Shown here one piece after another: positions 1 to 22,133 of a stretch of 49,376 nucleotides of DNA. The stretch's first letter is position 1; each line of letters opens with the position of its first letter. This DNA comes from a virus. Its lineage: Duplodnaviria; Heunggongvirae; Uroviricota; Caudoviricetes. The stretch is from IMG/VR virus record IMGVR_UViG_2909251562_000001. One strand, written 5' to 3'. Made by a program: the position numbers and the translations under genes. The notes under the pieces are model-generated. The model made no database searches, had not been told where the DNA came from, and saw only the letters and a program-made list of their open reading frames with translations.

Positions 1-1131
1 TCAAATGACCAGTTTTTTCCACTCCTTACCACGTGCATCGTTGTAAATATCGGTCATTTTTTGATTCGAATGGCCAAGCAAAATTTGGGTGTCGATCCCT
101 TGCTCCCTGAACAAACGCTCCGACAATGATCGCTGTTCATGGAAAGAGGGTGGGGTACCATTAGCGCACCAGTTGTAATCTACAGAGTCCCGCGCTTTTT
201 TAAATGCAACTGTTAACGTTGCTGGCTTAACCATCCCGCCGCGCTTGGCTGTCCCTTTCGCATGATGGTGGTGCAATAGCCACGGACTAAGAACGCAATC
301 GCGACAGGATGACACCACATCATCCAGGGTGAGATTTAATTTATTGCAACGCAGAGCAAGAGGGATGGCAATCCGGGTTCCTGTTTTTTGCTGTTCGACA
401 TGAAGATAACCATCCCGGATATCCGAAAATTGCATTTTGCAAATATCTGAAAGGCGCTGGCCTGTCATCAGTGCCAGCAGCATGCCGCGCTGTAAAAAGT
501 AACCATCCTTTTCCGCTGCGTTATAAATCATCATCCACTCATCAAAAGTCAGTCGCTGTCTTGATATCCGCACCTGCGGTTTTTTTGCCGATTCTGCAGG
601 GTTAAAGCCTGGCGGAACATCGCCTGTTTGCTGAGCTTCTCGGAAAACATCGATCAGTACCTTCCTGAAAATTTGTCCCATTCTGTTATGTCCTCTGGCC
701 TTGTACTCTTCCAGCACCGATACCACATCTTTTACGGTTATGGCATCTAACGGTCTGGTGCCAAAACGTTCATCAAATACCCTGAGAGGGGCCGCTTTTT
801 GTTTCAGCGTGTTGAGTTTGATCTCTCCGTTTTCATATCTTTCCTGTTGAATTTTTCTGTAATTATTCAGAAAAATGGAAACGGTTGATGAACCGCCGGT
901 ATCATTAATAATTTTCTCCTGCAGACTGAGCATTTGTTTCATTTGCTGCCTGGCAAGACGGCTGTTCGCTTCTGCTGCAATAGTTTCTGCCAGTTTCTGG
1001 TCAATACTGCCGAGACCGTGATTTTTGCCTGTTATGGGATGCCTGTAACGCCAGTAAACTTTGTTATTTCTTTTGTCAAAATACGGAGATAATCCCGGAA
1101 CATCAGTTTTATATTTTCGCGGGCGCGCCAT
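1..1131 (-). CDS. int: phage tyrosine integrase
   Basis: 376-aa ORF ending at the window edge (stop at 1-3). C-terminal catalytic region with conserved His/Arg/Tyr context (LLGHSNQKMTDIY). Overlapped at its start by a small Xis-like gene, the usual int-xis arrangement. Confidence 0.9.
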   Translation of the reverse strand: MARPRKYKTDVPGLSPYFDKRNNKVYWRYRHPITGKNHGLGSIDQKLAETIAAEANSRLARQQMKQMLSLQEKIINDTGGSSTVSIFLNNYRKIQQERYENGEIKLNTLKQKAAPLRVFDERFGTRPLDAITVKDVVSVLEEYKARGHNRMGQIFRKVLIDVFREAQQTGDVPPGFNPAESAKKPQVRISRQRLTFDEWMMIYNAAEKDGYFLQRGMLLALMTGQRLSDICKMQFSDIRDGYLHVEQQKTGTRIAIPLALRCNKLNLTLDDVVSSCRDCVLSPWLLHHHHAKGTAKRGGMVKPATLTVAFKKARDSVDYNWCANGTPPSFHEQRSLSERLFREQGIDTQILLGHSNQKMTDIYNDARGKEWKKLVI

Positions 1132-1357
1132 CTTCCAGTATCCTCTTCAAGGCTGGGTGATCTGTAGCGATCACCTCCGGCTTGTTTACCATTCCGACAA
1201 AGCGAGCTTGCGGATCCACTCGCCAGTGTCTTCCAACTTTTTTGGGAAGAGGAAATATCATTCCGGCTTTAGCGTATTTACTTAACGTGCCCGGAGTAGG
1301 GACCGGATCGCTGAATTCCTCTTTTGCCCACTCAGTGAGCAGAATAAGTCTTGCCAT
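1109..1357 (-). CDS. xis: excisionase-like small basic protein
   Basis: 82-aa ORF directly upstream of int, overlapping its start by 23 nt. Size, position and basic character fit an excisionase; start codon not certain. Confidence 0.6.
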   Translation of the reverse strand: MARLILLTEWAKEEFSDPVPTPGTLSKYAKAGMIFPLPKKVGRHWRVDPQARFVGMVNKPEVIATDHPALKRILEDGAPAKI

Positions 1358-1421: not shown

Positions 1422-3893
1422 TTAAAAATCAGCCTGACTCGGGATCAGTTTTTGCCAGATAGCTGAAACGTATTTTGCCTGGTAACGAGCGTCATCAAGT
1501 GCATTATGGCGCTCACCTTCGAATGGGATAGCAGTTCTGGCATCGAAGTCTATGGCTTTCCCCAGCTCAACGATTGTGCGTACATCGCGATCGTTGTAGT
1601 AACGCCACGGGCAGGGGATCCCCTGCCGCTCGTATGAACGGCGCAAAATAGTGTTGTCGAAGTTGGCTCCATTTCCCCAGACCTGAACAAAAAATTCACC
1701 GGAGTTTTCGTCGATAAATTCCCGCAATTGTAACAGTGCATCATCTAACGGGATTTCATCGGTCATAATGGCAGATTGCGCTTCGCGTGATTGTTTAAGC
1801 CACCATTTAATGGTGTCCCGATCAATGACTCCGCCAGCAGTTTCCAGATCGATAGTCTTACTAAATTCCGGTCCCATATCTCCGGTTTGCGGATCGAAAA
1901 ATATTGCACCTATTGAGATAATCGGGGCATCGGGATTTTTTCCCATGGTTTCAAGGTCGATCATCAGATGAATCCCCGCTCTGCTGGTGGATGTGAGATT
2001 ATGATGACCGTTCGCCTTAATTAAGGGATCTGACGCCTCGCCAGTTTCACTATCGCTGGCATGATGCTGATTGCCGCCAGTGTTCTCCTTGTGCTGATGC
2101 GCAGTGCCTTCCATTTCCTCCGGATCATTTTCCTGAACTTCAGGCTGATTCTCTCCATCGAATATTTCCTGGTATGTTGCGTCACCCATCACCGCACCAC
2201 AATCAGGGCAGTTGCCGCCACCGCTCTGACCGCAGGCGGTGCAGATCTTTTCCGGTTCCTGTTGCACTACTGGTTCAGGTTGTTTCGTTTCTGGCTCGTT
2301 TTGTTGCGTATTTGGGCTGTTTTGTTCCGCTTTCTGGTCGTTCTGTTCCGTTTCTTGCTGGTTCTGGTTCGCAGAATCGCGGGTCTGGATCCCCTTAACC
2401 CATTTCGGATCATTCGGGTCGCTAATCCCTTCAACAAATTCACCACGTGATACTGCAAGCAGTTCATCGGCGTCAGGCTGGCTGATATTGGCTGCCTGCA
2501 TAATTTTGTTTACTTCGTCAGCGGTAACTTTTACTGACCCTGGTTGTGCGGTCGTGTCAGATGCACCAGTATTTTGTTGTGAACCTGAGTATGTACCGTT
2601 TTTGCGGGCGAAATATTCTTCTTTCGTGATTTCAGTAGCCCCAGCAGACAGCGCCTTATCCAGACCAGAAAGTTTGTTTGCGCGACCGTATTTTTCGCCA
2701 TCCTTGTCGGTGAAGAGGAAGTAGAACGGCCCCTCACGTTCTACAGATGGTTCGACTTCCACTTTGCATTCGGTTTTTTCGTTGTCTGGAATTGCCGTTT
2801 CCACTGCATCAGTTTCTGGTACTGGCGACGAGAGAGTATCAGTTGCGCTCTGATTTGTTCCTTCATCTTCAAACACGCCCTTTGTAGTCAGGTATTCAGT
2901 AATGTATTTGTTCAGTGCCACAGGGTCTTTGTGAATGTCGATCGGACGTTCACGGACAAGGCCAAAAATAGTCTGGCGGTCGTAGCGAAGGGCATCAGGC
3001 TGTTTGCGCATTGATGCCGAGATACGCTTCCAGTCTTCGCGGTCGTTGTCGATAACTTCATTTTTTGCCCAGCGATGGATGCTGCCGTCAATGTTTCCGG
3101 CATCCACATCACCAGGCCAGAGAGCGTAGGCCAGTTCGTCATCCAGTGTTTTCCATGTCTGCTTGTATTCGCGATGAATGGCAGCAATGACCAGGTTGAT
3201 TTTTCCTGTTGAATTTTCAGTGTGCTGTTGATTGGCTCTGGCGCGGGCGAGATCAACAACAGACGTGTATTTTCCGGTTTCCTTGCGTTCACCTTCGCGA
3301 CGTTTTTTCCAGATGCGCATCTCTGCCTGAATTTCGGGCCATTTGGCACCAGGCTTACATTTATGCTTAACCCACCCGATGGCATGCAGCTTAAGCTCCG
3401 GATACATGGCGTTAACTTCTGGCATTTTCATCAACGCTTCAACGATATGTCCGTCGAATGTTGCCATGTCTTCCTGCAACAATTCCTGCGCGCTAATCAC
3501 CATATCAACGGTGATGTTTTCACATGTGTCGAACTTAACCATGACAGCGTTCTGTACTTCAGGGGCCAGCTTGTCAAAAGTGACGTTCATCGGATCTGAT
3601 TCAGTCTCAACCGGGACAAAGGAAGCAGACTCCTCATCCCAGCGGTTTTCCTGCATATATTCAGCATCCCAGGAATCGAGGGCAGGGCGGGGTATACCGG
3701 GTTTATCCTCGCAAACAAGAAATTTATAAGCGCAGTCCTGAGCAGCCGGATAATGTTCCAGGAATTGCCAGTGAAATTTTGCTCGTGCACGGCGTTCGTC
3801 GCCAGCTTCAATGGCTGTGGCTACAGCCACAGCGCCTTCTTCCCTTGTTGCCAGTTCGTCAGGAATAGCGGCGCAAATAAAGACTTTACTCAT
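1422..3893 (-). CDS. large early-region exonuclease (RecE/exodeoxyribonuclease VIII-like), C-terminal DEDDh 3'-5' exonuclease domain
   Basis: 823-aa ORF. C-terminus carries three exonuclease motifs (MIDLETMG; NGANFDNTIL; HNALDDARY). Central segment SRGEFVEGISDPNDPKWVKGIQTRD resembles RecE-family prophage proteins as recalled. Sits where lambdoid recombination genes lie. Confidence 0.7.
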   Translation of the reverse strand: MSKVFICAAIPDELATREEGAVAVATAIEAGDERRARAKFHWQFLEHYPAAQDCAYKFLVCEDKPGIPRPALDSWDAEYMQENRWDEESASFVPVETESDPMNVTFDKLAPEVQNAVMVKFDTCENITVDMVISAQELLQEDMATFDGHIVEALMKMPEVNAMYPELKLHAIGWVKHKCKPGAKWPEIQAEMRIWKKRREGERKETGKYTSVVDLARARANQQHTENSTGKINLVIAAIHREYKQTWKTLDDELAYALWPGDVDAGNIDGSIHRWAKNEVIDNDREDWKRISASMRKQPDALRYDRQTIFGLVRERPIDIHKDPVALNKYITEYLTTKGVFEDEGTNQSATDTLSSPVPETDAVETAIPDNEKTECKVEVEPSVEREGPFYFLFTDKDGEKYGRANKLSGLDKALSAGATEITKEEYFARKNGTYSGSQQNTGASDTTAQPGSVKVTADEVNKIMQAANISQPDADELLAVSRGEFVEGISDPNDPKWVKGIQTRDSANQNQQETEQNDQKAEQNSPNTQQNEPETKQPEPVVQQEPEKICTACGQSGGGNCPDCGAVMGDATYQEIFDGENQPEVQENDPEEMEGTAHQHKENTGGNQHHASDSETGEASDPLIKANGHHNLTSTSRAGIHLMIDLETMGKNPDAPIISIGAIFFDPQTGDMGPEFSKTIDLETAGGVIDRDTIKWWLKQSREAQSAIMTDEIPLDDALLQLREFIDENSGEFFVQVWGNGANFDNTILRRSYERQGIPCPWRYYNDRDVRTIVELGKAIDFDARTAIPFEGERHNALDDARYQAKYVSAIWQKLIPSQADF

Positions 3894-4016
3894 TTTGTTT
3901 TAACCTCATGACAGATTTAAGGATGAACAAATCCCTGCCATTGCTGGCATATAAGAATCAAATCTGATGTATTCATTAAGCTGAATGTCGTATTGTGGCA
4001 GTTATTTTATTACTGC

Positions 4017-4250
4017 TCACCATGACTCTGCTTTTACAGGTAAACCATCACGACCAAGGAAGACTTTAATCATGGTTTCCTTAATACAGTGTTGTGTGGA
4101 AAAATCACGAATATAGAGCCGTTGTTTTTTAATGTTGTTTACCGAAGCAATATATGTTCTTCCTTTATGAATAACATAATCACCGGGAGTCACGCACTGA
4201 CGAGGAATCTCATCAGTTCCGAAGTGATGAGCAATCATAATTATCTCCAT
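4017..4250 (-). CDS. hypothetical small early protein
   Basis: 77-aa ORF downstream (same strand) of the DicF-like sRNA, at the position dicB occupies in Qin-type prophages, but with no recognisable similarity to DicB. Start ambiguous (MEIIM or MIAHH). Confidence 0.45.
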
Positions 4251-4417
4251 TTTTACAAATGAACTTTGTTGATGCGGTGCCTGGTGCCTCCAGGTGACGT
4301 TAACCAGTTAACAATTAACGCCGGATACAGAGAACCCACCCATAACACTGTTTTTGGTTTTAACTGTTCCGCGTGCGCTTAGCCGCATTCACCGCATCAC
4401 AAAATTCACTTTAAAAA

Positions 4418-4469
4418 GGGCGGCAGAGCAGTCACGGAGTAAACTGATACCGCCAAACGCCACCAGAAA
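4418..4469 (-). ncRNA. dicF: DicF-like small regulatory RNA
   Basis: Minus-strand sequence TTTCTGGTGGCGTTTGGCGGTATCAGTTTACTCCGTGACTGCTCTGCCGCCC followed by a T-run closely matches the ~53-nt E. coli DicF sRNA as recalled from memory. Lies in a ~500-bp stretch of the leftward operon with no convincing ORF. Confidence 0.6.
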
Positions 4470-4800
4470 ATTGATAACAGAGGGCGTTGTAGCGGGGTTG
4501 TCACTTAAGCGTATGGTCAACCTGACAACCCGGTGTCCTCAACGGGGAAGGAATAACCCCGCCATACTTACCGCCGCGCCATTTCGCGGATTGCCACAAC
4601 CGGAAGCGCACGGTCGAATTAAATTTAACGACACCGTACAGTGAGACGAACATCGCCGTGCGCTTTCGCGTTATGCCCTGACTTTTCAGGAAAATGCCCT
4701 TTCAGTAAACTGTCAGTGCCGGATGCTCACCCGTGTCCGGCGCACGCACTCCACCTGACCCGTGGAGAACTCCTTAATTACCAACCCTCAGGAGGGTGAA

Positions 4801-5022
4801 ATGACTAGTAAAAATGTAAATATCCAGTTTAACCACGATGTTTCTCCTGCTGGACTTGCGGATGAGCTCACTGCTATAAAAACGGCAATTATGCTACTTG
4901 CTGCTAAGTTGCCTGCGTCATCAAAGCCAGCGGAAATTTGTGACTCATTGCGTAAGATGAATTCAACAAAATGCAATGAGATGGCATCACTTATTGAAAG
5001 TGCAATTGATTTTAATGATTAA
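4801..5022 (+). CDS. hypothetical protein, plus-strand gene embedded in the leftward early operon
   Basis: ATG at 4801 preceded by GGAGGG (4791-4796). 73 aa, Ala/Leu-rich. Converges on and overlaps the 3' end of minus-strand gene 5012..5386 by 11 nt. Confidence 0.5.
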   Translation: MTSKNVNIQFNHDVSPAGLADELTAIKTAIMLLAAKLPASSKPAEICDSLRKMNSTKCNEMASLIESAIDFND

Positions 5023-5386
5023 TCGAAATTTCATGGCTAACTGTAACACTCCCATCTGTGGCGGGATGGTTTAAATCGCTGGGATTAATGCCGCACTCAG
5101 TAAAATGGTTCTTAAGGGGTTCTATCCGAATCCCTTTCTTTTTCATTAACAAGCCAAAACCCTTATCAATGATATCCATTAATTCCAGGAAGTATTTTTC
5201 ATGTAAATCCTGGTTATCAGAGAGCTGCTTCTCTTCGTACAGACCGATAAAGGCACGACGCACGTTACCGGATATAGTATCGATGGTTTCTTTTTCTACG
5301 GTACTCAGGTCAAGAGTCGCCAGTTGGGAACGAACTATATTCGCTGCCATTTCCTGGAATTGCATTGGTAAATCTTTAAATTCCAT
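5012..5386 (-). CDS. hypothetical early protein
   Basis: 124-aa ORF in the leftward early operon; no recognisable motif. Confidence 0.55.
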   Translation of the reverse strand: MEFKDLPMQFQEMAANIVRSQLATLDLSTVEKETIDTISGNVRRAFIGLYEEKQLSDNQDLHEKYFLELMDIIDKGFGLLMKKKGIRIEPLKNHFTECGINPSDLNHPATDGSVTVSHEISINH

Positions 5387-5408
5387 TATTAGCCTCGTTG
5401 GTTAGCTA

Positions 5409-5627
5409 TTAACGCGGGCATGTAATCATTCTGGCAATGCTTAATGCCGCTGCTTTTTCCAGCCTGGTGATATCCTGCTCCAGAGCGGACAGATTTTCAG
5501 CCTGCTTAGCCCTGGCTTCATTGGCCCATTTCAGGTCCTGCGCAGCCTTAATTTTCTGGTGCATCCACTCATAAAGTTCATCATCGGTATAGTCTGGCGC
5601 GATGATGACGGGTTCTCGTTTCTGCAT
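5409..5627 (-). CDS. hypothetical small early protein (YdfC-sized)
   Basis: 72-aa ORF with GAGGAA Shine-Dalgarno upstream; directly follows a 42-codon ORF in the same operon. Confidence 0.55.
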   Translation of the reverse strand: MQKREPVIIAPDYTDDELYEWMHQKIKAAQDLKWANEARAKQAENLSALEQDITRLEKAAALSIARMITCPR

Positions 5628-5656
5628 ACTGATTCCTCGCGGTGCTGCTTCGCTTA

Positions 5657-5785
5657 TCAGCCGTTAGATTTTGCCGGGCTGGAAAGCGCCTGTATAAACT
5701 CACTGAAGCTGAGAGCTTCTTCGCCTTTGGCAAGGCCTTCGAAGTATTCTTCGTAAGCCTTTTCCATGATTGTGTCGAAATCCAT
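5657..5785 (-). CDS. 42-aa small protein (YdfB-like), translationally coupled
   Basis: Hand translation of the minus strand from ATG 5785-5783 gives MDFDTIMEKAYEEYFEGLAKGEEALSFSEFIQALSSPAKSNG, stop at 5659-5657. Its ATG is 2 nt after the upstream stop (TGAtATG). Absent from the ORF track because it is under 60 aa. Confidence 0.5.
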   Translation of the reverse strand: MDFDTIMEKAYEEYFEGLAKGEEALSFSEFIQALSSPAKSNG

Positions 5786-5786
5786 A

Positions 5787-5942
5787 TCACTCACCTGAGT
5801 TTCTTTTCAGCCAGCGACGGGCACCATTTTCGGTTTTAAACGTTTTGCTTTTGGTATACGTCATCGCGGTGAACGTACCGTCCTGGTTGGGGAACACGCC
5901 ACATACCAGAGATTCGTTGTTGCCAAGATCGATAGTATCCAT
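5787..5942 (-). CDS. YdfA-like 51-aa small protein
   Basis: Internal Met (MDTIDLGNNESLVCGVFPNQDGTF...) with GAGG 7 nt upstream is the likely start. The open frame extends to 6023 (78 aa). Sequence recalled as similar to Qin-prophage YdfA. Confidence 0.5.
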   Translation of the reverse strand: MDTIDLGNNESLVCGVFPNQDGTFTAMTYTKSKTFKTENGARRWLKRNSGE

Positions 5943-6150
5943 GTTGACCTCATTTCCCCTTAACGCCGGGGTAGCGGAACAAAAACCTGCTGCATAGTTA
6001 TTAAAGTTGAACCCTGCCGTCATGTTCTTACGCCTCGGGCTGGCTACTTAACCCCTGACCACTGCCGGGTAACTCGAAGTATTGCCCTGCATTCTGTGGG
6101 GTGGAGTGAAGGAATGAATGAAGTTTAGAAAAATGAACTTTACAGGTCAA

Positions 6151-6168
6151 TGTTTTTTTATCAAAACA
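6151..6168. promoter_or_regulatory. putative left operator (18-bp palindrome TGTTTT-N6-AAAACA)
   Basis: TGTTTTTTTATCAAAACA lies between the repressor 3' end and the leftward early genes; same half-sites as the element at 6873-6890. Confidence 0.4.
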
Positions 6169-6234
6169 TTTTAAGCAGGCAGCTGTTAAGCCATCACCAC
6201 GATGGCATACAGTTAATCAAATAGATGAGGTTGG

Positions 6235-6873
6235 TTAAATATCTTGTTGAATTTTAAAGCATACGCCCAATATGCAAGATAGATCATCCAGCATAATTGA
6301 AGGGTAGCGAGGATTCGTGGGGACTAAAAGAATATCCGGCCCTTCTATCTCCAGTTTACGAATGACAGGTGTTGTGGTCCCTTTGGGTAAGGCAAGGACA
6401 ATATTTCCTGGTTGTACGGTTCGATCGGGATCAACAAAAACTGTTGAACCATTTGGGATGGAAACTCCCCCACCAGATGTTGACATACTGTCACTCTCTA
6501 GAACAACTGCAAAGGTATTGGCCGGGATTTCTCCGACAAGCTGCACACAAGAGGTTATTGAGGAATTTTTCATATAATCACTCCAGCTTGCTGCCTGCTG
6601 AAGTGATAGTAGCGGAACCGTTTTTATCGGCGGTAAAGATAGATCAAGCGAATCACCTGTATTTAACTCTCCTCCATTAAGAAGCCAATTTTCGTTTACT
6701 TTCAATATCTTTGCCAGTGAACTTATGTAACGCGAGGACGGCGCTCCTCCACCGTTCATCCATTGACTTACGGAGCCTTTTGATGCGCCAGTGGCATTGA
6801 CAAGGTCTTTGCCTTTCAGGTTTAGCGCATGCATACGTTGGGTTATGCGTTCAGATATTGTTTGCTTGCTCAT
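6235..6873 (-). CDS. CI-type phage repressor (HTH plus S24 LexA-like autopeptidase domain)
   Basis: 212 aa. N-terminal helix-turn-helix region (DLVNATGASKGSVSQWMNGG), C-terminal S24 signature with Ser (LESDSMSTSG) and Lys (VIRKLE). Divergent from the Cro-like gene. Confidence 0.85.
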   Translation of the reverse strand: MSKQTISERITQRMHALNLKGKDLVNATGASKGSVSQWMNGGGAPSSRYISSLAKILKVNENWLLNGGELNTGDSLDLSLPPIKTVPLLSLQQAASWSDYMKNSSITSCVQLVGEIPANTFAVVLESDSMSTSGGGVSIPNGSTVFVDPDRTVQPGNIVLALPKGTTTPVIRKLEIEGPDILLVPTNPRYPSIMLDDLSCILGVCFKIQQDI

Positions 6874-6964
6874 GTTTTGATTTTAAAACACAGATGGTTT
6901 TGTTTCTTGACTTTCTTTGGTTTTGATTATTAAACTTTTGGCGTTCAGTTTTATGGAGCGACTC
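6873..6964. promoter_or_regulatory. divergent immunity promoter/operator region
   Basis: 92-bp gap between divergent repressor and Cro-like genes. Holds the palindrome TGTTTTGATTTTAAAACA (6873-6890, overlapping the repressor start codon), a second half-site GGTTTTGAT (6919-6927) and a TTGACT -35-like hexamer (6907-6912). Confidence 0.45.
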
Positions 6965-7195
6965 ATGAAAAAATCAGAAGTATTAGGCTATTTTGGCGGA
7001 GTTGTTAAAACAGCCGCAGCTCTAGGAACGTCAAAAACCACAGTCAGCATGTGGGGGGAAGAGGTTCCGTGGAAATGGGCGTTGCTAATTCAGGCAGTCA
7101 CTGCCGGGGCGCTCAAATATGAGTTACACATACCGACGGTTGTCATTCCCGGTTCTGATCATAATCCGCCTTCTAACCAAGGGGGGGATTCATGA
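6965..7195 (+). CDS. Cro-like small HTH regulator
   Basis: ATG 6965 preceded by GGAG; about 76 aa; HTH-like stretch LGTSKTTVSMWGEE; divergent from the repressor. Confidence 0.65.
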   Translation: MKKSEVLGYFGGVVKTAAALGTSKTTVSMWGEEVPWKWALLIQAVTAGALKYELHIPTVVIPGSDHNPPSNQGGDS

Positions 7196-7617
7196 AAATC
7201 AAGCATGAACACATCCGCATGGCGATGAATGCCTGGGCGCATCCGGACGGCGAGAAAGTACCGGCTGCAGAGATTACCAAAGCGTATTTCGAGCTGGGAA
7301 TGACGTTCCCGGAACTGTATGACGACAGCCATCCGGAAGCCCTGGCTCGCAATACCCAGAAAATTTTCCGCTGGGTAGAGAAAGACACCCCTGATGCAGT
7401 TGAAAAAATTCAGGCGTTGTTACCAGCGATCGAAAAGGCAATGCCACCTTTGCTGGTGGCCAGAATGCGCAGCCACAGTTCTGCTTATTTTCGGGAGCTG
7501 GTGGAGACGCGGGAGCGACTGGTGAGAGACGCTGATGATTTTGTCGCAGTGGCAATCGCCGGTTTCAATCAGATGAACCGCGGTGGCCCGGCGGGAAATG
7601 CCGTGGTGATGCACTAA
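7192..7617 (+). CDS. YdaT-like / CII-like early protein
   Basis: 141 aa starting MKIKHEHI, as in Rac YdaT-family proteins (recalled). Overlaps the Cro-like stop by 4 nt. Confidence 0.5.
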   Translation: MKIKHEHIRMAMNAWAHPDGEKVPAAEITKAYFELGMTFPELYDDSHPEALARNTQKIFRWVEKDTPDAVEKIQALLPAIEKAMPPLLVARMRSHSSAYFRELVETRERLVRDADDFVAVAIAGFNQMNRGGPAGNAVVMH

Positions 7618-10675: not shown

Positions 10676-11230
10676 TCAATTATCTAAAATTGTGCTAAAT
10701 CTTTTTATTACCATTAAGAACGTTATAACAGTGATAAAAAAGGATGCATAGGATAAAAAGCTAACAATATATGCAGGTGCGCGAAAATACCATTTCATTA
10801 AATCTACTGCATTGTCAGGCAGGAAATATATTATCACTGAAAATATAACCAATACTATTGAAGTTAATATTGCATAAGCGACGTTGTGGCATAACTGCTC
10901 ATATATGGTTTTGTTAGTGTTTAATGATATCAATTTGTCTCGGGATTTGTTTCCTTCAATTATGTCTGATATCTTAGTGATGGTTTTTTGTTTTTGTTCA
11001 TAAATCATTATTACTGCACTCATTAATAGTGCTGTTGTAATAGCCCCGAAGTTAACGAAGACGGAAGCAATTGCCGGTTTCATTATTCCGTATGTCCAGC
11101 ACAGAACGAAAGAAAGAGATAACGGAACAATAAAATGTACGATAATGTCGCTCATCAACATTGTTCCACGCTGATCTGACATTGTTTTGTAGTGTTTTAT
11201 TATTACACCCAGCACATTTATTTTATTCAT
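10676..11230 (-). CDS. four-helix integral membrane protein (candidate effector of a two-gene module)
   Basis: 184 aa with four long hydrophobic segments. Its ATG overlaps the upstream gene's stop (ATGA). Very AT-rich. Confidence 0.7.
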   Translation of the reverse strand: MNKINVLGVIIKHYKTMSDQRGTMLMSDIIVHFIVPLSLSFVLCWTYGIMKPAIASVFVNFGAITTALLMSAVIMIYEQKQKTITKISDIIEGNKSRDKLISLNTNKTIYEQLCHNVAYAILTSIVLVIFSVIIYFLPDNAVDLMKWYFRAPAYIVSFLSYASFFITVITFLMVIKRFSTILDN

Positions 11231-12159
11231 ATAATCACCCCTTTGTTTCCGCTATGCAGTTCTAACAATATATCATTAGAAAGGTTTTTTATCGTGTCAT
11301 GAAGTGCTGTTAGATCAGGTATGCCTGTTAATGGGTCGATTTTTAAATCATTATCATCTAACTCTGCGGAAATTCCTTTTTTTAGTATGGTCTCATAATT
11401 GAAAACGACAGTCCGACTGCCGAGTTGTAAGCTTACTTTTATTGCATCACATTTATCTTCAATAATCTCAATGATGTTTCCTATATTCTTGTTTCTTAAA
11501 TCCCTGAAACTTCCGAACATGCCATTGTTTGCTTTTATTATTAAGTCTGTCTTGATGTTTGTTTTGTTTTGACCAAAGGAATCAGCAATGTCTTTTGGTG
11601 CTTTATATCCTTGAGCCTTAATTTGTTTTAATTCGGAATTGAGAATATATTGAGGGATTTTCTTATGATGTAATGGATTGATTCTTGCTTCGAGTTGAAA
11701 TTTGTTTTTTAGATATTCAGTGATAGAATCAGAAAGGACACCTCGAGCAGAAATATTATCGCAAGAGTGGAATGCAATAATTCCTTCTTCAAGGGTGTCT
11801 GGTAGGTATATTAAAATATAACGTTCTTTGAGTGTTACATCATAAGCAGTTGTCCTATAGTGGATTTTTTTGAGTTTTACATCTTTTATTTCACTGCTTT
11901 CTCCATATTTCCCAACTTTTATATAACCATATATAATTTTCTTTGAGTTATCAAAGTGAAGTTTAGCGTGTTGTTCCAGAGATATTTTAGTTTTGGATAC
12001 GCCAAACTCGATAGGGGTGTTTTTATATAGAGTAAAATAATCAACAAAAAGTTCATATGCCGTTTTTTTATTACTTAAACCCAATTCATTAAGTTTTTTG
12101 CTGGCTCGACTGCCTTTATGGGTCAATACGCGGAATGAATAGAAATTAACGCTGTGCAT
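11227..12159 (-). CDS. 310-aa protein of unknown function (candidate sensor/enzyme partner)
   Basis: Long AT-rich ORF, Lys/Ile/Asn-rich, no motif I can recognise by eye; translationally coupled to the downstream membrane protein. Confidence 0.7.
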   Translation of the reverse strand: MHSVNFYSFRVLTHKGSRASKKLNELGLSNKKTAYELFVDYFTLYKNTPIEFGVSKTKISLEQHAKLHFDNSKKIIYGYIKVGKYGESSEIKDVKLKKIHYRTTAYDVTLKERYILIYLPDTLEEGIIAFHSCDNISARGVLSDSITEYLKNKFQLEARINPLHHKKIPQYILNSELKQIKAQGYKAPKDIADSFGQNKTNIKTDLIIKANNGMFGSFRDLRNKNIGNIIEIIEDKCDAIKVSLQLGSRTVVFNYETILKKGISAELDDNDLKIDPLTGIPDLTALHDTIKNLSNDILLELHSGNKGVII

Positions 12160-12585
12160 GAAAAGTCCTTTTGAACATATAGGAGTATACTAGAACATAA
12201 ATAGATGCAATGCATAAAGGAAAAGCTACCGCAGGGCGAACTCACCCACCGATAACTCTTAACTGGTTGTTTGTAAAAGATAATACATAAATTTGGGTCT
12301 GTGTAAAGAGGTAAGCATCGTCAGGGCAAGGGAGATGTGTTAGGCAATATTGGTAAAATTTACGTTGAGGATAAAAACGGTTTGCGGGAAAAGGAGAGTT
12401 AAGTAGAATTGCTGCGGGTGCTTGAGGCTATCTGTCTCAGGCATGAACACCAAAAGGCAGATAGAGAAAAGCCCCAGTTAACATTACGCGTCCTGCAAGA
12501 CGCCTAACATTAATCTGAGGCCCAATCTATGTCTCACAAATGTAGGTTAGCCTCTTACGTGCCGAAAGGCAAGGAGAAGCAGGCT

Positions 12586-12741
12586 ATGAAGCAGCAAAAG
12601 GCGATGTTAATCGCCCTGATCGTCATCTGTTTAACCGTCATAGTGACGGCACTGGTAACGAGGAAAGACCTCTGCGAGGTACGAATCCGAACCGGCCAGA
12701 CGGAGGTCGCTGTCTTCACAGCTTACGAACCTGAGGAGTAA
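12586..12741 (+). CDS. hokD: Hok/Gef-family toxin (HokD/RelF-like)
   Basis: MKQQKAMLIALIVICLTVIVTALVTRKDLCEVRIRTGQTEVAVFTAYEPEE, 51 aa, matches the Hok family signature and E. coli RelF/HokD as recalled. Structured leader upstream. Confidence 0.85.
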   Translation: MKQQKAMLIALIVICLTVIVTALVTRKDLCEVRIRTGQTEVAVFTAYEPEE

Positions 12742-17330: not shown

Positions 17331-17406
17331 GGCCCTTTAGCTCAGTGGTGAGAGCGAGCGACTCATAATCGCCAGGTCGCTGGTTCAAATCCAGCAAGGG
17401 CCACCA
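17331..17406 (+). tRNA. tRNA with CAU anticodon (Ile2 lysidine-type or Met)
   Basis: 76 nt with encoded CCA; 7-bp acceptor stem GGCCCTT/AAGGGCC; anticodon loop CUCAUAA; closely resembles E. coli ileX as recalled. Confidence 0.85.
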
Positions 17407-17407
17407 A

Positions 17408-17484
17408 CCGTCACCAGTTCATCAGGAAAGAGCGTCAACCCTTTAAGTTGAGTGTGCGAGGTTCGAGTCCCCGGTGGCGGTCCA
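17408..17484 (+). tRNA. atypical tRNA-like gene (anticodon loop CCUUUAA, possibly Lys-UUU)
   Basis: 77 nt ending in CCA; acceptor CCGTCAC/GTGGCGG (one G-U pair); T-arm with TTCGAGT loop; anticodon stem TCAAC/GTTGA. Position 33 is C rather than U and the 5' nucleotide is C. Confidence 0.4.
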
Positions 17485-17486
17485 GT

Positions 17487-17562
<76 letters not shown>

Positions 17563-17565
17563 TAT

Positions 17566-17640
<75 letters not shown>

Positions 17641-19339: not shown

Positions 19340-19402
19340 TCGCCTGTAAGAGCAGAATATTGTTGAATCTAAGTAAGCGGCTCGTCAGAACCGTATTGAT
19401 AT

Positions 19403-20974
19403 TTACTGAGAGCTCAGATCAACTTTCCAGGGCAACAGATCGCGTACCCGGTTTGCCGGCCAGTCCTGGATATGTTCAATGACGTAGCGCAGCCACTTTT
19501 CTGGCTCCACATTGTTCAGACGGCATGTGCCGATCAGCGAGTACAACACCGCCGCATGTTCACCACCGCTGTCGGAACCCGCGAACATCCACTTTTTCCG
19601 GCCTACGGCCACTCCCCGTAAGGCGTTCTCTGCGATGTTGTTGTCGATTTCCACCCAGCCATTACTGCAGTACACGTTCAGTGCATCCCACTGTTTCAGC
19701 AGGTATGCGAACGCTTTTGCCGTATCTGAGTGACGCGACAGTGTTTTCATCTGTTGCTGTATCCAGTCATACAGTGACTGCATCAGTGGCGCGGCTCTGG
19801 TTTTTCTTGCCGCCAGACGCTGTTCTGCTGAACAGCCCCGGACCTCTGCCTCGATGGCATACAGTTCACCGATACGCTGCAGGGCTTCCGTGGTGATGTC
19901 GGTGGGCGCTCTTGCATGCACATCGTGGATTTTTCTCCGGGCATGAGCCATACACGCGGCTTCCGTTATTCTGCCGGATTCGTATAACGCCCGGTAACCA
20001 CCGTAAGCATCGGCCTGAAGCACACCGCTGTAACCGGCCAGGTGATTTTGTGGATGGATACCTTTCCGGTCCGGACTGTACGCGAACCAGACCGCCGGGG
20101 GCATCTGTGAACCGGCGTTACGGTCATCACGGACGTAGACCCACAGCCGGGCTGTCCGGGTTTTACCGCTGCCCGGCTCCTGGACCGGGACGGGGATATC
20201 ATCAGCATGGACTTTACCGGGCATCAGCACATACTGGCGCAGGACGTCATACAGCGGCTCCAGTAGTTCAGCAACGGCACCTGTCCAGCGCCCCAGTGTG
20301 GCACGGCTCAGCTCCACACCCTGACGGCGGTATATCTCTGACTGGCGGTATAACGGCAGATGGTCTGCATATTTTCCGGTGACGACATGGGCCAGGAGCC
20401 CCGCTCCGGCATAACTGCGTGCAATGGGTTTTGAAGGTACTGGTGCCTGCACGATATGGTCGCACCGACAACAGGCCAGTTTCGGACGTTGTGTTTCGAT
20501 AACCTTAAAGGCGCTGCTGATAAGCTCCAGTTGCTCTGACACATCACATCCCAGAGAACTGAGTTCACCACCACAGGCAGGACAGCATTCCTCTTCCGGC
20601 CGGATAACCCGGGTTTCACGGGGAAGTGAGGCCGGTAACGGTTTACGGGCTGAAGACTGGCGCAGGGCGGATGGCAGTACCGGGTCATATTGCTCACCCA
20701 GCGTTTCCGCCATTTCTTCCTGAAGTGCGCTGATTCGCTCCTGTGCTTCCTGTATCTGCCGTTCGGTTTTTGCACGAAGTTTTTCTGAGCTTTTACCGAA
20801 CTGCATACGTTGCAGTTTCGCAACCAGCGCCTTCAGCCGGTTGATTTCGGAAGCATAAGCCGCCACCCGCTGTGAGAGCAGGCGGTTGTATTCAGCCATC
20901 TGGCGGATGGTGTCCTGTTGCGTCTGCAACAGTGCCCGCAGGCGGGCGTTCTCATGAGCAAGTGAGGTGTCCAT
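19403..20974 (-). CDS. tnpC: IS66-family transposase TnpC
   Basis: 523 aa with N-terminal coiled-coil/leucine-zipper region, Cys cluster (CPACGG...CRC) and DDE-type core typical of IS66 transposases. Confidence 0.9.
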
Positions 20975-20993
20975 ATCCTCACTTTACAACGGG

Positions 20994-21341
20994 TTATATG
21001 CGGATTCCAGCGCGTTCCGTTCGTTTCGGGTGCTTCCAGTTGATACCTTCAAGAAGCATGGATAACTGAGCCGGAGTAAGGTGCACCTTGCCGTCACGGG
21101 TGACTGGCCAGACGAAGCGGCCCCGCTCCAGGCGTTTGGTGAAGAGGCACAGTCCGTCACTGTCAGCCCACAACACTTTTATCTGGTCACCCCGGCGTCC
21201 GCGGAAGATGAACAGGTGTCCGGAGAACGGGTCATCCTTCAGGACGTTCTGAACTTTTGATGCCAGGCCGTTAAAGCCATTTCGCATATCGGTGATACCT
21301 GCAACCAGCCAGATACGCGAACCTGCAGGGAGAGATATCAT
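20994..21341 (-). CDS. tnpB: IS66 Orf2 (TnpB) accessory protein
   Basis: 115 aa, MISLPAGSRIWLVAGITDMRNGFNGL... matches the conserved IS66 Orf2 family. Confidence 0.85.
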   Translation of the reverse strand: MISLPAGSRIWLVAGITDMRNGFNGLASKVQNVLKDDPFSGHLFIFRGRRGDQIKVLWADSDGLCLFTKRLERGRFVWPVTRDGKVHLTPAQLSMLLEGINWKHPKRTERAGIRI

Positions 21342-22018
21342 CAGTGGCTGCTCCCTTTTATTTCGCGGATAAGTGTCTGTAATAACGCCGGCGTCAGTTT
21401 ACCTTTAAGCCTGAGAGTTCCGGCCGGCAGAACCAGCTCACAACACAGACTGTCGGACGGTGTATTTATCTGCTCTGGTTCCTGTGCGGGGGCCGGGATT
21501 TTATTATCCGGCTCCGGCGTTAACGTCACGGGAAGCAGTGCCGGCATATTTTTTCCGGAAGGCAGCAGGCCACCTTTCCGGTATTGATGGCGCCAGTTGA
21601 AGAGCAGGTTATCGTTGATTCCGTTTTCCCGGGCGATCTGCGCCACACAGGCTCCGGGCTGCAGTGACTGCTCCACTAAGGCGATTTTAAACTCATAAGG
21701 GAAGTTGGGCCGCCGGGGACGTTTTTTTACCACGGGGGCTTCGGATATAACGGTGCTTTCAGGACGTACGACTGGTACCGTGGAAAATTGTCCGTAAAGG
21801 CAGGCATCAAGTTCCTGCTCCGACATGCCTGCGGGCAAAGGCCACGAAAGGCCAGCTCTCCGAAAGCGCACGAACATACTACAAACTGTTGATTTTGGTA
21901 CACCCAGGCGACGCCCGGCCACAACCCGGGGTAAATGTTCTTCAAAGTGAAGACGTAAAGCTTCAGTGATCCAGGTCCGGTGTTTCATACGATAGTGTCC
22001 ATTAAAAATGATGGACAT
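21341..22018 (-). CDS. tnpA: IS66 Orf1 (TnpA-like) accessory protein
   Basis: 225-aa ORF (start may be internal) with HTH-like N-terminus; stop overlaps the Orf2 start. Confidence 0.65.
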   Translation of the reverse strand: MSIIFNGHYRMKHRTWITEALRLHFEEHLPRVVAGRRLGVPKSTVCSMFVRFRRAGLSWPLPAGMSEQELDACLYGQFSTVPVVRPESTVISEAPVVKKRPRRPNFPYEFKIALVEQSLQPGACVAQIARENGINDNLLFNWRHQYRKGGLLPSGKNMPALLPVTLTPEPDNKIPAPAQEPEQINTPSDSLCCELVLPAGTLRLKGKLTPALLQTLIREIKGSSH

Positions 22019-22133
22019 TATTTTTGTAGAGCCGGAGGAAACAGACCAGACGGTTTAAATGAGCCGGTTACGAATCTAAATTTACTTTGAACAGTGGCCC
22101 GGATGGAAAGGGCATCTAAATAGGAGCAGAAAA

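What the first reader, a model, noticed from the sequence alone, without database searches (positions are those of the whole stretch)
4418..4469. DicF-like sRNA embedded in the leftward early operon
The minus strand carries a near-copy of the roughly 53-nt DicF sRNA (as recalled) with its terminal U-tract. It lies inside a ~500-bp stretch of the operon with no convincing ORF. DicF represses ftsZ and other host mRNAs, so induction of this prophage's early operon could block host cell division. The gene downstream is not DicB-like, which suggests a recombined dic region.
Basis: partly seen in the sequence, partly recalled or inferred. Interest (0 to 1): 0.55.

Follow-up and report, generated by a model that had tools for sequence, protein, structure and literature searches.

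The report
DicF small RNA beside kil gene
This is a genuine copy of DicF, a long-known prophage small RNA that blocks synthesis of the cell-division protein FtsZ; it sits in the early-left operon of a lambdoid prophage just upstream of a second known division inhibitor (Kil), which is an ordinary arrangement already present in many E. coli genomes.

Summary
Window 4469..4418 (minus strand) matches the Rfam DicF model over its full length (69.6 bits against a gathering score of 48; E 2e-13). It differs from K-12 dicF at two positions: A10G, and one U missing from the U27-30 run. The terminator stem, the U-tract and every nucleotide shown by mutagenesis to matter for ftsZ or xylR control are intact.

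The roughly 560-nt stretch without an ORF is the conserved DicF precursor leader plus a strongly structured linker downstream. The downstream gene is indeed not dicB. It is a KilR homologue (81% identity to Rac KilR), another FtsZ inhibitor, which has replaced the dicB-ydfD cassette. The recombination joint maps to window 4279..4271, inside the 3' arm of a conserved long helix that follows DicF.

The operon lies downstream of a CI-type repressor (HTH plus S24 peptidase) and a PL-like promoter overlapped by an operator palindrome.

None of this is new:
- DicF-like sequence occurs in 60-73% of 5,426 complete E. coli genomes.
- The DicF-kil junction occurs in about 195 of them and in phage Evi.
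- The window is 99.99% identical to a RefSeq genome.

Only the exact G10/deleted-U allele is rare (6 genomes). It is predicted to hide the 5' seed.

The parts
4418..4469 (-). DicF sRNA gene (52 nt; equivalent to the 53-nt K-12 form). Allele G10 (window 4460) with one U missing from the U27-30 run (window 4443..4441).
   Evidence: Rfam RF00039 69.6 bits against GA 48, E 2.2e-13, full-length match. Alignment to K-12 dicF.
4413..4417 (-). U-tract of the DicF intrinsic terminator. It is also the start of the 5' arm of the linker helix.
   Evidence: Sequence read directly. Identical in Qin, Rac, Evi and Tritos.
4470..4786 (-). Non-coding DicF precursor leader, homologous to the ydfC-dicF spacer of K-12 Qin. 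The RNase E 5'-processing site is inferred at the AAUU/UUCUGG junction.
   Evidence: The blastn segment window 4786..4258, which contains this leader, is 93.4% identical to Qin L003 3063..3594; alignment. Fold z-score is only -1.97. The processing route is taken from PMC5069750.
4231..4417 (-). Structured linker, which is the 5' UTR of kil. A closing helix of 27 predicted pairs (window 4417..4390 paired with 4279..4250) encloses three smaller hairpins. It is the likely RNase III substrate that yields the 72-nt DicF form.
   Evidence: MFE -65.4 kcal/mol, z = -6.16, 0 of 200 shuffles as stable. The helix is kept in 6 sequences covering Qin, Rac, Evi, Tritos and IrN, with only one-sided changes such as G-C to G-U. 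Sub-threshold STnc100 RF02076 match, 37.6 bits against GA 47.
4271..4279 (-). Crossover interval between Qin-type sequence (upstream) and Rac-type kil sequence (downstream).
   Evidence: The window follows the Qin type, not the Rac type, through G4280, and follows Rac rather than Qin from 4270 onward.
4265..4348 (-). Remnant of the in-frame upstream extension of the dicB reading frame, annotated as a pseudogene in RefSeq. It lies inside the linker.
   Evidence: PGAP annotation of identical sequence in NZ_CP068155.1 and NZ_CP035826.1. No NCBIfam hit on its own.
4017..4238 (-). kil, a 73-aa homologue of the Rac KilR FtsZ inhibitor, in the position held by dicB-ydfD in Qin.
   Evidence: 81% identity to K-12 KilR, E 2e-47. 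NCBIfam NF008465, 140 bits against cut-off 92. phrog_294 Kil. RefSeq product WP_000560212.1.
5409..5942 (-). ydfA-like (5942..5787, DUF1391), ydfB-like (5785..5657) and ydfC (5627..5409): the upstream genes of the dicBF-type operon.
   Evidence: The blastn segment window 5980..5389, which contains these genes, is 95.4% identical to Qin ydfA-ydfC. Pfam DUF1391. RefSeq annotation.
4787..5388 (.). 600-bp insertion relative to K-12 Qin. It carries a 124-aa gene (5386..5012, minus) and a convergent 73-aa gene (4801..5022, plus, with a strong AGGAGG site).
   Evidence: Absent from Qin and present in strain IrN. phrog_6937 and phrog_7249, both of unknown function. No Pfam, NCBIfam or PADLOC hit.
6122..6169 (-). 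Candidate PL-type promoter (TTGACC, 17-nt spacer, TAAACT; 6150..6122). It abuts, and shares its first base (6150) with, an operator-like palindrome ATGTTTTgataaaAAAACAT (6169..6150).
   Evidence: Consensus scan. Sequence. Related palindromes at 6872-6890 and 6920-6938 in the repressor-cro intergenic region. Homology to other phages begins at 6108, just downstream. Function is inferred.
6235..6873 (-). CI-type repressor, 212 aa, with an HTH domain and an S24 (LexA-like) peptidase domain.
   Evidence: Pfam Peptidase_S24 at E 2e-13, and HTH_3 at 22.0 bits, just under its 23-bit cut-off. RefSeq annotates only the C-terminal 112 aa as 'LexA family protein'.
1422..3893 (-). 823-aa exonuclease, followed by xis (1357..1109) and int (1131..1): the distal genes of the same leftward transcription unit.
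   Evidence: Pfam Rv2179c-like 3'-5' exoribonuclease domain. RefSeq annotation.

Best explanation
Window 4469..4418 (minus strand) is a genuine dicF gene inside the early-left (PL-type) operon of a lambdoid prophage integrated next to ompW. The operon reads: promoter/operator, ydfA-like, ydfB-like, ydfC, orf124, non-coding leader, DicF, structured linker, kil, exonuclease, xis, int.

The proposed mechanism is as follows.
1. When the CI-type repressor (HTH plus S24 peptidase) is inactivated, leftward transcription runs through the leader.
2. DicF is released by RNase E cleavage at its A/U-rich 5' border.
3. Its 3' end is made either by termination at its own hairpin and U-tract, or, on read-through transcripts, by RNase III cleavage in the long helix that the U-tract region forms with the sequence just upstream of the kil ribosome-binding site.
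4. Hfq-bound DicF then pairs through ACUCCG and neighbouring bases with the ftsZ Shine-Dalgarno region and blocks FtsZ synthesis.
5. Kil, translated from the read-through mRNA, inhibits FtsZ at the protein level. The operon therefore acts on cell division twice.

Shown here: family membership, intact functional nucleotides, synteny, the mosaic structure and its breakpoint, conservation of the linker helix, and the domains of the repressor. Inferred from work on K-12 Qin and Rac: transcription on induction, the processing steps, Hfq dependence, ftsZ repression and Kil activity.
For: - Rfam DicF match at 69.6 bits against 48, E 2.2e-13, full length.
- Only two differences from K-12 dicF.
- The nucleotides defined by the published mutants DicF3, 9, 11, 21 and 23 are unchanged (PMC5069750 supplement).
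- Predicted core duplex with the ftsZ RBS is -15.3 kcal/mol, against -16.9 for K-12. Whole-molecule binding remains favourable at -9.8 kcal/mol.
- Flanks are collinear with Qin ydfABC, leader, dicF and UTR at 93-95% identity.
- The downstream protein is a KilR homologue.
- The linker folds at z = -6.2 and its closing helix is kept in Qin, Rac and the mosaics. This is consistent with the published RNase III-derived 72-nt DicF (PMC5069750).
- The repressor has an S24 peptidase domain and an HTH domain.
- An operator palindrome abuts, and shares one base with, the -35 of a TTGACC/TAAACT promoter, and recurs in the repressor-cro region.
- The same DicF-kil junction is in about 195 complete genomes and in the isolated phage Evi.
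- It is the only DicF-like place found in the identical genome NZ_CP068155.1.
Against: - There is no expression or processing data for this locus.
- The exact allele is rare: 6 of 5,426 genomes. The G10 allele with the same flanks occurs in only 30 more records.
- Thermodynamic folding predicts that G10 favours an alternative hairpin (nt 6-12 paired with 45-51). That hairpin buries the 5' seed (P unpaired 0.03 against 0.89) and lowers anti-SD accessibility (0.72 against 0.90).
- Predicted ftsZ binding is about 4 kcal/mol weaker than for K-12 DicF.
- RefSeq annotation of a 99.99% identical prophage shows an IS66 insertion and a frameshifted gpJ, and flags cro as frameshifted. The prophage may therefore be defective and its regulation altered.
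- The promoter call is a 9-of-12 consensus match, and such matches are no more frequent here than in shuffled sequence.
Confidence: 0.88

Rival explanations
1. The sequence is a DicF homologue but a functionally weakened or re-tuned allele. G10 locks the 5' seed into an alternative hairpin, and the missing U shortens the ftsZ duplex. The RNA would then regulate fewer targets, or none, in trans. It would resemble a natural DicF3-like variant: ftsZ repression kept, and the 5'-seed targets lost.
For: - The MFE structure switches to the alternative fold for both G10 alleles: -18.5 and -19.1 kcal/mol, against -13.7 to -13.8 for the canonical structure evaluated on the same sequences.
- P(unpaired) for nt 6-12 is 0.02-0.03, against 0.89.
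- Ensemble binding energy to ftsZ, xylR and pykA is 3-4 kcal/mol weaker than for K-12.
- The allele is rare.
- The Rfam score is 7 bits below that of K-12 DicF.
Against: - All experimentally defined seed nucleotides are intact.
- G10 still pairs with xylR as a G-U wobble, and the MFE duplex with xylR is retained.
- The G10 allele is carried by the isolated phage Evi and by dicB-type loci such as strain IrN, so it is not confined to one decaying lineage.
- Energies for a 52-nt RNA ignore Hfq and co-transcriptional folding.
Confidence: 0.09
2. The element works mainly in cis. It would be an intra-operon terminator plus RNase III processing site that sets how much kil, exonuclease, xis and int mRNA is made. 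Any trans-acting sRNA would be a by-product.
For: - The DicF hairpin and U-tract sit directly upstream of kil, and the U-tract is part of the long helix that ends next to the kil ribosome-binding site.
- Rac has a different sRNA body (KilS) but the same terminator 3' end and the same linker. The cis elements are therefore the most conserved part.
Against: - The DicF body, including the seed regions, is nearly invariant across thousands of genomes. A mere terminator would not need that.
- The cis and trans roles are not mutually exclusive.
Confidence: 0.03
3. The match is a chance resemblance or a non-transcribed relic.
For: None beyond the lack of annotation: RefSeq records list no feature under the match.
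Against: - E 2.2e-13 against the covariance model.
- 93-95% identity of several hundred bases of both flanks to the K-12 dicBF operon.
Confidence: 0

Closest known systems
DicF of the Qin cryptic prophage, E. coli K-12 (b1574; Rfam RF00039)
   Same: - 50 of 52 aligned positions are identical, plus one 1-nt deletion.
- Same terminator, same anti-SD and 5' seed nucleotides, same upstream leader, and ydfA/B/C genes upstream.
- Same linker downstream.
   Different: - A10G, and one U fewer in the U27-30 run.
- A 600-bp two-gene insertion lies between ydfC and the leader.
- kil is downstream instead of dicB-ydfD.
- The repressor is a CI type with an S24 peptidase domain rather than the 135-aa DicA.
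- The prophage sits at ompW and still carries a full set of structural genes.
DicF-kil loci in other E. coli (e.g. O121 RM8352, NZ_CP028110.1) and in Escherichia phage Evi (LR597642.1)
   Same: - Same DicF, linker and kil junction, and the same exonuclease downstream.
- The O121 locus encodes the identical Kil protein WP_000560212.1.
   Different: - Evi has G10 but keeps four U's.
- O121 has A10/U4 plus C43G.
- The upstream genes and immunity regions differ.
- DicF is not annotated in any of these records.
KilS-kilR of the Rac prophage, E. coli K-12 (b4833, b1352)
   Same: - An sRNA that ends at the same CCGCCCUUUUU terminator, followed by the same linker and a kil gene.
- The 3' part of KilS weakly matches the DicF model (39.1 bits).
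- KilS was verified by northern blot in PMC8175672.
   Different: - The body and seed of KilS are unrelated to DicF.
- Rac KilR is 81% identical to the protein here.
- The central part of the linker differs.
Multiple DicF copies in EHEC O157:H7 prophages
   Same: DicF is carried by several lambdoid prophages, in varied contexts of partial dicBF operons (PMC5069750; PMC7873438).
   Different: - Those copies were shown to respond to low oxygen and to activate pchA. None of that is testable here.
- The identical genome NZ_CP068155.1 shows a single DicF place.
STnc100 / PasD prophage sRNA family (RF02076)
   Same: The linker between DicF and kil aligns to the whole STnc100 model, including the CACCnGGAGGCACCnGGCACC hairpin and the closing stem.
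   Different: The score of 37.6 bits is below the gathering score of 47, so it is not filed as a member. K-12 Qin and Evi give 34.4 bits.

Membership tests
DicF sRNA (Rfam RF00039) | Covariance-model score at or above the curated gathering score, over the full model | tested here: met
   69.6 bits against 48, model positions 1-52 of 52, E 2.2e-13. For comparison: K-12 76.7, Evi 76.4, Tritos 72.5.
DicF sRNA (Rfam RF00039) | Intrinsic terminator: GGCGG...CCGCC stem followed by a U-tract | tested here: met
   Stem pairs show no non-canonical flags in the cmscan alignment. UUUUU at 4417..4413. The simple terminator scan missed it, most likely because the apical loop exceeds that tool's 3-8 nt limit.
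DicF sRNA (Rfam RF00039) | Anti-Shine-Dalgarno region that pairs with ftsZ (positions altered in DicF9, DicF21, DicF23) | tested here: met
   A31-G36 (ACUCCG) and U30 are unchanged; mutant sequences come from the oligo table of PMC5069750. Predicted core duplex is -15.3 kcal/mol, against -16.9 for K-12. One flanking U-A pair is lost.
DicF sRNA (Rfam RF00039) | 5' seed used for xylR/pykA (positions altered in DicF3, DicF11) | tested here: inconclusive
   G6-G7-U8 are unchanged. The neighbouring A10G turns an A-U pair with xylR into G-U. It is also predicted to sequester nt 6-12 in an alternative hairpin.
DicF sRNA (Rfam RF00039) | Location in a PL-type prophage operon, downstream of ydfA/B/C and upstream of a cell-division inhibitor gene | tested here: met
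   The inhibitor is kil rather than dicB.
DicF sRNA (Rfam RF00039) | Production of a 53/72-nt RNA by RNase E, termination and RNase III; Hfq binding; repression of ftsZ translation | not testable with these tools
   Known for K-12 (PMC5069750). Here only the sequence prerequisites are present: an A/U-rich 5' border, the terminator and the long linker helix.
Kil / KilR FtsZ inhibitor (NCBIfam NF008465; phrog_294) | Full-length profile match above the curated cut-off, and close identity to Rac KilR | tested here: met
   140 bits against 92, residues 1-73 of 73. 81% identity to K-12 KilR. phrog_294 at E 8e-33.
Kil / KilR FtsZ inhibitor (NCBIfam NF008465; phrog_294) | Inhibition of FtsZ ring formation / filamentation on expression | not testable with these tools
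   Known for Rac KilR (PMC12482147 title and abstract).
DicB (MinC-dependent division inhibitor) | A 62-aa DicB reading frame downstream of DicF | tested here: not met
   Only the upstream, non-essential in-frame extension survives, as a pseudogene fragment at 4348..4265. The DicB coding sequence and ydfD are replaced.
STnc100 (RF02076) | Covariance-model score at or above the gathering score | tested here: not met
   37.6 bits against 47.

The most novel reading that the evidence does not exclude
The most novel reading has two parts.

1. The rare G10/deleted-U allele may be a naturally re-tuned DicF. The single A10G change would create an alternative terminator hairpin that hides the 5' seed. 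That seed is the region whose loss, in the DicF3 mutant, relieves DicF growth inhibition in liquid culture while ftsZ repression is kept. Such an allele would be a milder, division-specific DicF.

2. The sRNA cassette (DicF or KilS) and the inhibitor cassette (dicB-ydfD or kil) may be exchanged independently. The exchange would occur by recombination inside a conserved, RNase III-processed, STnc100-like linker that serves as a portable junction.
Probability: 0.2. Interest if true: 0.35.

Novelty: already known. Interest (0 to 1): 0.17.

Why it matters
It matters little for discovery. DicF has been known since the 1980s, its presence in many different prophage contexts has been published, and this exact sequence is already in RefSeq genomes.

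The practical value is for annotation. None of the RefSeq records or the phage Evi record examined here lists DicF at this site. RefSeq also labels the kil product 'cell division protein FtsZ', which is misleading.

For biology, the locus shows that a prophage early operon can act on FtsZ twice: an sRNA against its synthesis and Kil against the protein. It does so under what appears to be a cleavable CI-type repressor. The signals that induce the K-12 dicBF operon are still unknown (PMC6832061), so an SOS-inducible relative could be an easier system in which to study native DicF expression.

Tried and rejected
- **Terminator scan.** The simple promoter/terminator scan did not report the DicF terminator, most likely because its apical loop exceeds the tool's 3-8 nt limit. 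This says nothing against the terminator.
- **STnc100.** I considered filing the DicF-kil linker under STnc100. It is rejected as a member because 37.6 bits is below the gathering score of 47, and is kept only as a resemblance.
- **Small ORFs that overlap DicF.** These are 4389..4520 (-, 43 aa), 4501..4653 (-, 50 aa) and 4354..4644 (+, 96 aa). I do not treat them as genes, for three reasons. RefSeq annotates none of them. The ATG of the 50-aa frame is created by a SNP at 4652 that is absent from the two closest genomes. They lie on a sequence explained by a known RNA.
- **Insertion genes.** Pfam, NCBIfam and PADLOC searches of the two insertion genes (orf124, orf73) gave nothing. Only PHROGs of unknown function matched.
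- **KilS-dicB combination.** I looked for it in the phage collection and found none.
- **Failed scripts.** Both were rerun.

Full report

Yes. A covariance-model scan of the whole window against Rfam places DicF (RF00039) at 4468..4418 on the minus strand. The score is 69.6 bits against a gathering score of 48, with E 2.2e-13, and covers all 52 model positions (repeated locally).

I fetched the annotated K-12 gene (dicF, b1574, NC_000913.3 1649382-1649434) and aligned it. The window matches from 4469 to 4418 with two differences:
- A10 is G (window 4460).
- One U is missing from the run U27-U30 (window 4443..4441).

The terminator arm CCGCCC is followed by UUUUU at 4417..4413.

**2. What surrounds it?**

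The window is 99.99% identical (5 mismatches in 49,083 bases) to a prophage next to ompW in E. coli strain 67-1, NZ_CP035826.1. Over its leftmost 9.6 kb it also matches FDAARGOS_1077, apart from one SNP.

On the minus strand the order of features is as follows:

| Feature | Window coordinates |
|---|---|
| CI-type repressor | 6873..6235 |
| ydfA-like (DUF1391) | 5942..5787 |
| ydfB-like | 5785..5657 |
| ydfC | 5627..5409 |
| 124-aa gene | 5386..5012 |
| DicF | 4469..4418 |
| 73-aa gene (kil) | 4238..4017 |
| 823-aa exonuclease | 3893..1422 |
| xis | 1357..1109 |
| int | 1131..1 |

A 73-aa gene on the plus strand (4801..5022) converges on the 124-aa gene.

A segment-by-segment comparison with K-12 Qin gives this map:
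- Window 5980..5389 corresponds to ydfA through ydfC (95.4% identity).
- Window 5388..4787 is a 600-bp insertion, absent from Qin and present in strain IrN.
- Window 4786..4258 corresponds to the non-coding leader, dicF and the dicB 5' UTR (93.4%).
- Window 4257..3979 is replaced.
- Window 3978..3127 corresponds to ydfE, the exonuclease N-terminus (96.9%).

The 'roughly 500-bp stretch without an ORF' is therefore the known untranslated DicF precursor region. RefSeq annotates nothing in it except a 28-codon dicB N-terminal pseudogene fragment at 4348..4265.

**3. The downstream gene.**

It is a KilR homologue:
- 81% identity over all 73 residues to K-12 Rac KilR.
- NCBIfam NF008465 'FtsZ inhibitor protein', 140 bits against a cut-off of 92.
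- phrog_294 'Kil protein for bacterial septation inhibition'.

Alignment to both Qin and Rac maps the joint. The window carries the Qin-type base, not the Rac-type base, at 4280. It follows Rac rather than Qin from 4270 onward. The crossover therefore lies in the nine shared bases 4279..4271, about 35 nt upstream of the kil start codon. The dicB-ydfD cassette has been exchanged cleanly for a kil cassette.

**4. The linker.**

The 187 nt between the DicF stem and the kil start (4417..4231) fold far better than shuffled sequence: -65.4 kcal/mol, z = -6.16, with 0 of 200 shuffles as stable.

The dominant feature is a closing helix of 27 predicted pairs. It pairs 4417..4390, which begins with the DicF U-tract, against 4279..4250, which ends just before the kil ribosome-binding site. 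In an alignment of six loci (window, Qin, IrN, Evi, Tritos, Rac) every pair of this helix is kept. The only changes are one-sided ones such as G-C to G-U, even though the 3' arm comes in a dicB type and a kil type.

DicF is reported to have two 3' ends: a 53-nt terminated form and a 72-nt form made by RNase III from the full-length mRNA (PMC5069750). A cut about 19 nt past the terminator falls in the 5' arm of this helix, so I infer that the helix is the RNase III substrate. The recombination joint lies in its 3' arm.

The same stretch gives a full-length but sub-threshold match to STnc100 (37.6 bits against 47). I record this as a resemblance only.

In Rac, the northern-verified sRNA KilS (PMC8175672) occupies the DicF position and ends at the same CCGCCCUUUUU. 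It is followed by the same linker, and its 3' part weakly matches the DicF model (39.1 bits).

**5. Are the functional nucleotides intact?**

The oligonucleotide table of PMC5069750 defines the published mutants:
- DicF9 changes CUC32-34 and abolishes ftsZ control.
- DicF23 changes G36.
- DicF21 changes U30-A31-C32.
- DicF3 changes G6-G7-U8; it loses xylR and pykA control but keeps ftsZ control.
- DicF11 changes G7.

All of these positions are unchanged here. The missing U removes one flanking pair. The predicted core duplex with the ftsZ ribosome-binding site is -15.3 kcal/mol, against -16.9 for K-12.

Thermodynamic folding does predict an effect of A10G. GGUGGCG (nt 6-12) can pair with UGCCGCC (nt 45-51), and this gives an alternative hairpin that becomes the minimum-energy structure. 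Its energy is -18.5 to -19.1 kcal/mol, against -13.7 to -13.8 for the canonical structure on the same sequences. The predicted probability that nt 6-12 are unpaired falls from 0.89 to 0.03, and for the anti-SD from 0.90 to 0.72. Ensemble binding energies to ftsZ, xylR and pykA are 3-4 kcal/mol weaker than for the K-12 allele. These are calculations on naked RNA, without Hfq. I treat them as a hypothesis, not a finding.

**6. Control of the operon.**

The repressor ORF is 212 aa. It has a clear Peptidase_S24 domain (E 2e-13) and an N-terminal HTH_3 match at 22.0 bits, just under Pfam's 23-bit cut-off. K-12 DicA, by contrast, is 135 aa.

Between the repressor and ydfA there is a TTGACC, 17-nt spacer, TAAACT promoter candidate at 6150..6122. 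Its -35 abuts the palindrome ATGTTTTgataaaAAAACAT (6169..6150), sharing one base with it. Relatives of that palindrome lie at 6872-6890 and 6920-6938 in the repressor-cro intergenic region. Homology with other phages resumes at 6108, just downstream of the predicted start site, as expected at the edge of an immunity region.

Leftward transcription on repressor cleavage is therefore plausible but inferred. The promoter scan as a whole finds no more sites than in shuffled sequence.

**7. How common is it?**

- DicF-like sequence is found in 3,255 of 5,426 complete E. coli genomes with the window allele as query, and in 3,952 with a four-U query. Some genomes have up to 7 places.
- The DicF-kil junction is present full-length in about 195 genomes. 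One is STEC O121 RM8352, which encodes the identical Kil protein but carries an A10/U4/C43G DicF.
- The junction is also in the isolated phage Evi, which has G10/U4.
- Phage Tritos annotates DicF explicitly, next to dicB.
- Published work already describes dicF in multiple prophage contexts and in multiple copies in O157:H7 (PMC5069750; PMC7873438).
- Only the exact allele is rare: 6 genomes. The G10/U4 77-mer occurs in 30 records.
- In the identical genome NZ_CP068155.1 this is the only DicF place found.

**8. Verdict.**

This is an authentic dicF gene in a dicBF-type early-left operon in which dicB-ydfD has been swapped for kil. It is a known RNA in a known kind of context, and the sequence is already public although unannotated there.

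The residual points of mild interest are the predicted refolding of the G10 allele, and the modular exchange of the sRNA and inhibitor cassettes around a conserved structured linker. Both would need experiments.

Noticed in passing
window 4231-4417 (-): The DicF-kil linker is very strongly structured (z = -6.2). It gives a full-length but sub-threshold STnc100 (RF02076) match of 37.6 bits. The same is true of the K-12 dicF-dicB spacer and of phage Evi (34.4 bits each). A 2026 preprint links STnc100 to the PasD prophage sRNAs.
   Followed up: partly
L004 7411-7466 (-) (K-12 Rac, NC_000913.3 about 1418410-1418465): The 3' part of the Rac sRNA KilS matches the DicF covariance model at 39.1 bits (gathering score 48). 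KilS shares DicF's terminator end and downstream linker, so it looks like a diverged positional paralogue of DicF. The paper that named KilS does not mention DicF.
   Followed up: partly
window 4787-5388: A 600-bp insertion relative to K-12 Qin carries two convergent genes whose 3' ends overlap by 11 bp: a 124-aa gene (minus, phrog_6937) and a 73-aa gene (plus, phrog_7249, strong AGGAGG site). Neither has a Pfam, NCBIfam or PADLOC hit. The plus-strand gene would be transcribed against the early-left operon, much as sieB is in Rac.
   Followed up: partly
window 10676-12159 (-): A two-gene unit lies between the replication module and hokD. It encodes a 310-aa protein and an overlapping 184-aa protein that looks membrane-embedded by eye. 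Neither has a Pfam or PADLOC match. The position is typical of a prophage accessory or exclusion cargo.
   Followed up: partly
window 12416-12591 (+): A sok antitoxin RNA (RF01794, 118.6 bits) lies over the start of an annotated hokD toxin gene and the sequence just upstream of it. This is a type I toxin-antitoxin pair inside the prophage.
   Followed up: no
window 17331-17640 (+): tRNA cluster downstream of the Q antiterminator. Rfam and RefSeq give three tRNAs. ARAGORN adds a fourth, tRNA-Lys(ttt), at 17408-17484. The first tRNA has anticodon CAT and is called Met by ARAGORN but Ile in RefSeq.
   Followed up: no
window 4652: This is the only difference from FDAARGOS_1077 in the leftmost 9.6 kb, and one of five differences from strain 67-1 (A here, T in both). 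On the minus strand it creates the ATG of a 50-aa ORF (4653..4501) inside the DicF leader. K-12 and Evi have G on the minus strand at this position.
   Followed up: partly
window 6235-6873 (-) and 6965-7208 (+): RefSeq annotates only the C-terminal 112 aa of the repressor ('LexA family protein'), although a 212-aa ORF with an N-terminal HTH is open. RefSeq also flags the adjacent cro gene as frameshifted, although a 76-aa ORF matches P22_Cro over positions 1-52 of 60.
   Followed up: partly
window about 19400-22020 and about 38500-41975: In the 99.99% identical strain 67-1 prophage, RefSeq annotates an IS66-family element (ISCro1) inserted after the lysis genes and a frameshifted tail-tip gene J. 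The prophage may therefore not form infectious particles.
   Followed up: no
window 49130-49333 (+): Rfam IS009 match (122.2 bits against a gathering score of 117) at the right end of the window, beyond the tail-fibre genes.
   Followed up: no
window 4017-4238 (-): RefSeq gives the kil gene product the name 'cell division protein FtsZ'. This is a misleading label for an inhibitor of FtsZ.
   Followed up: yes
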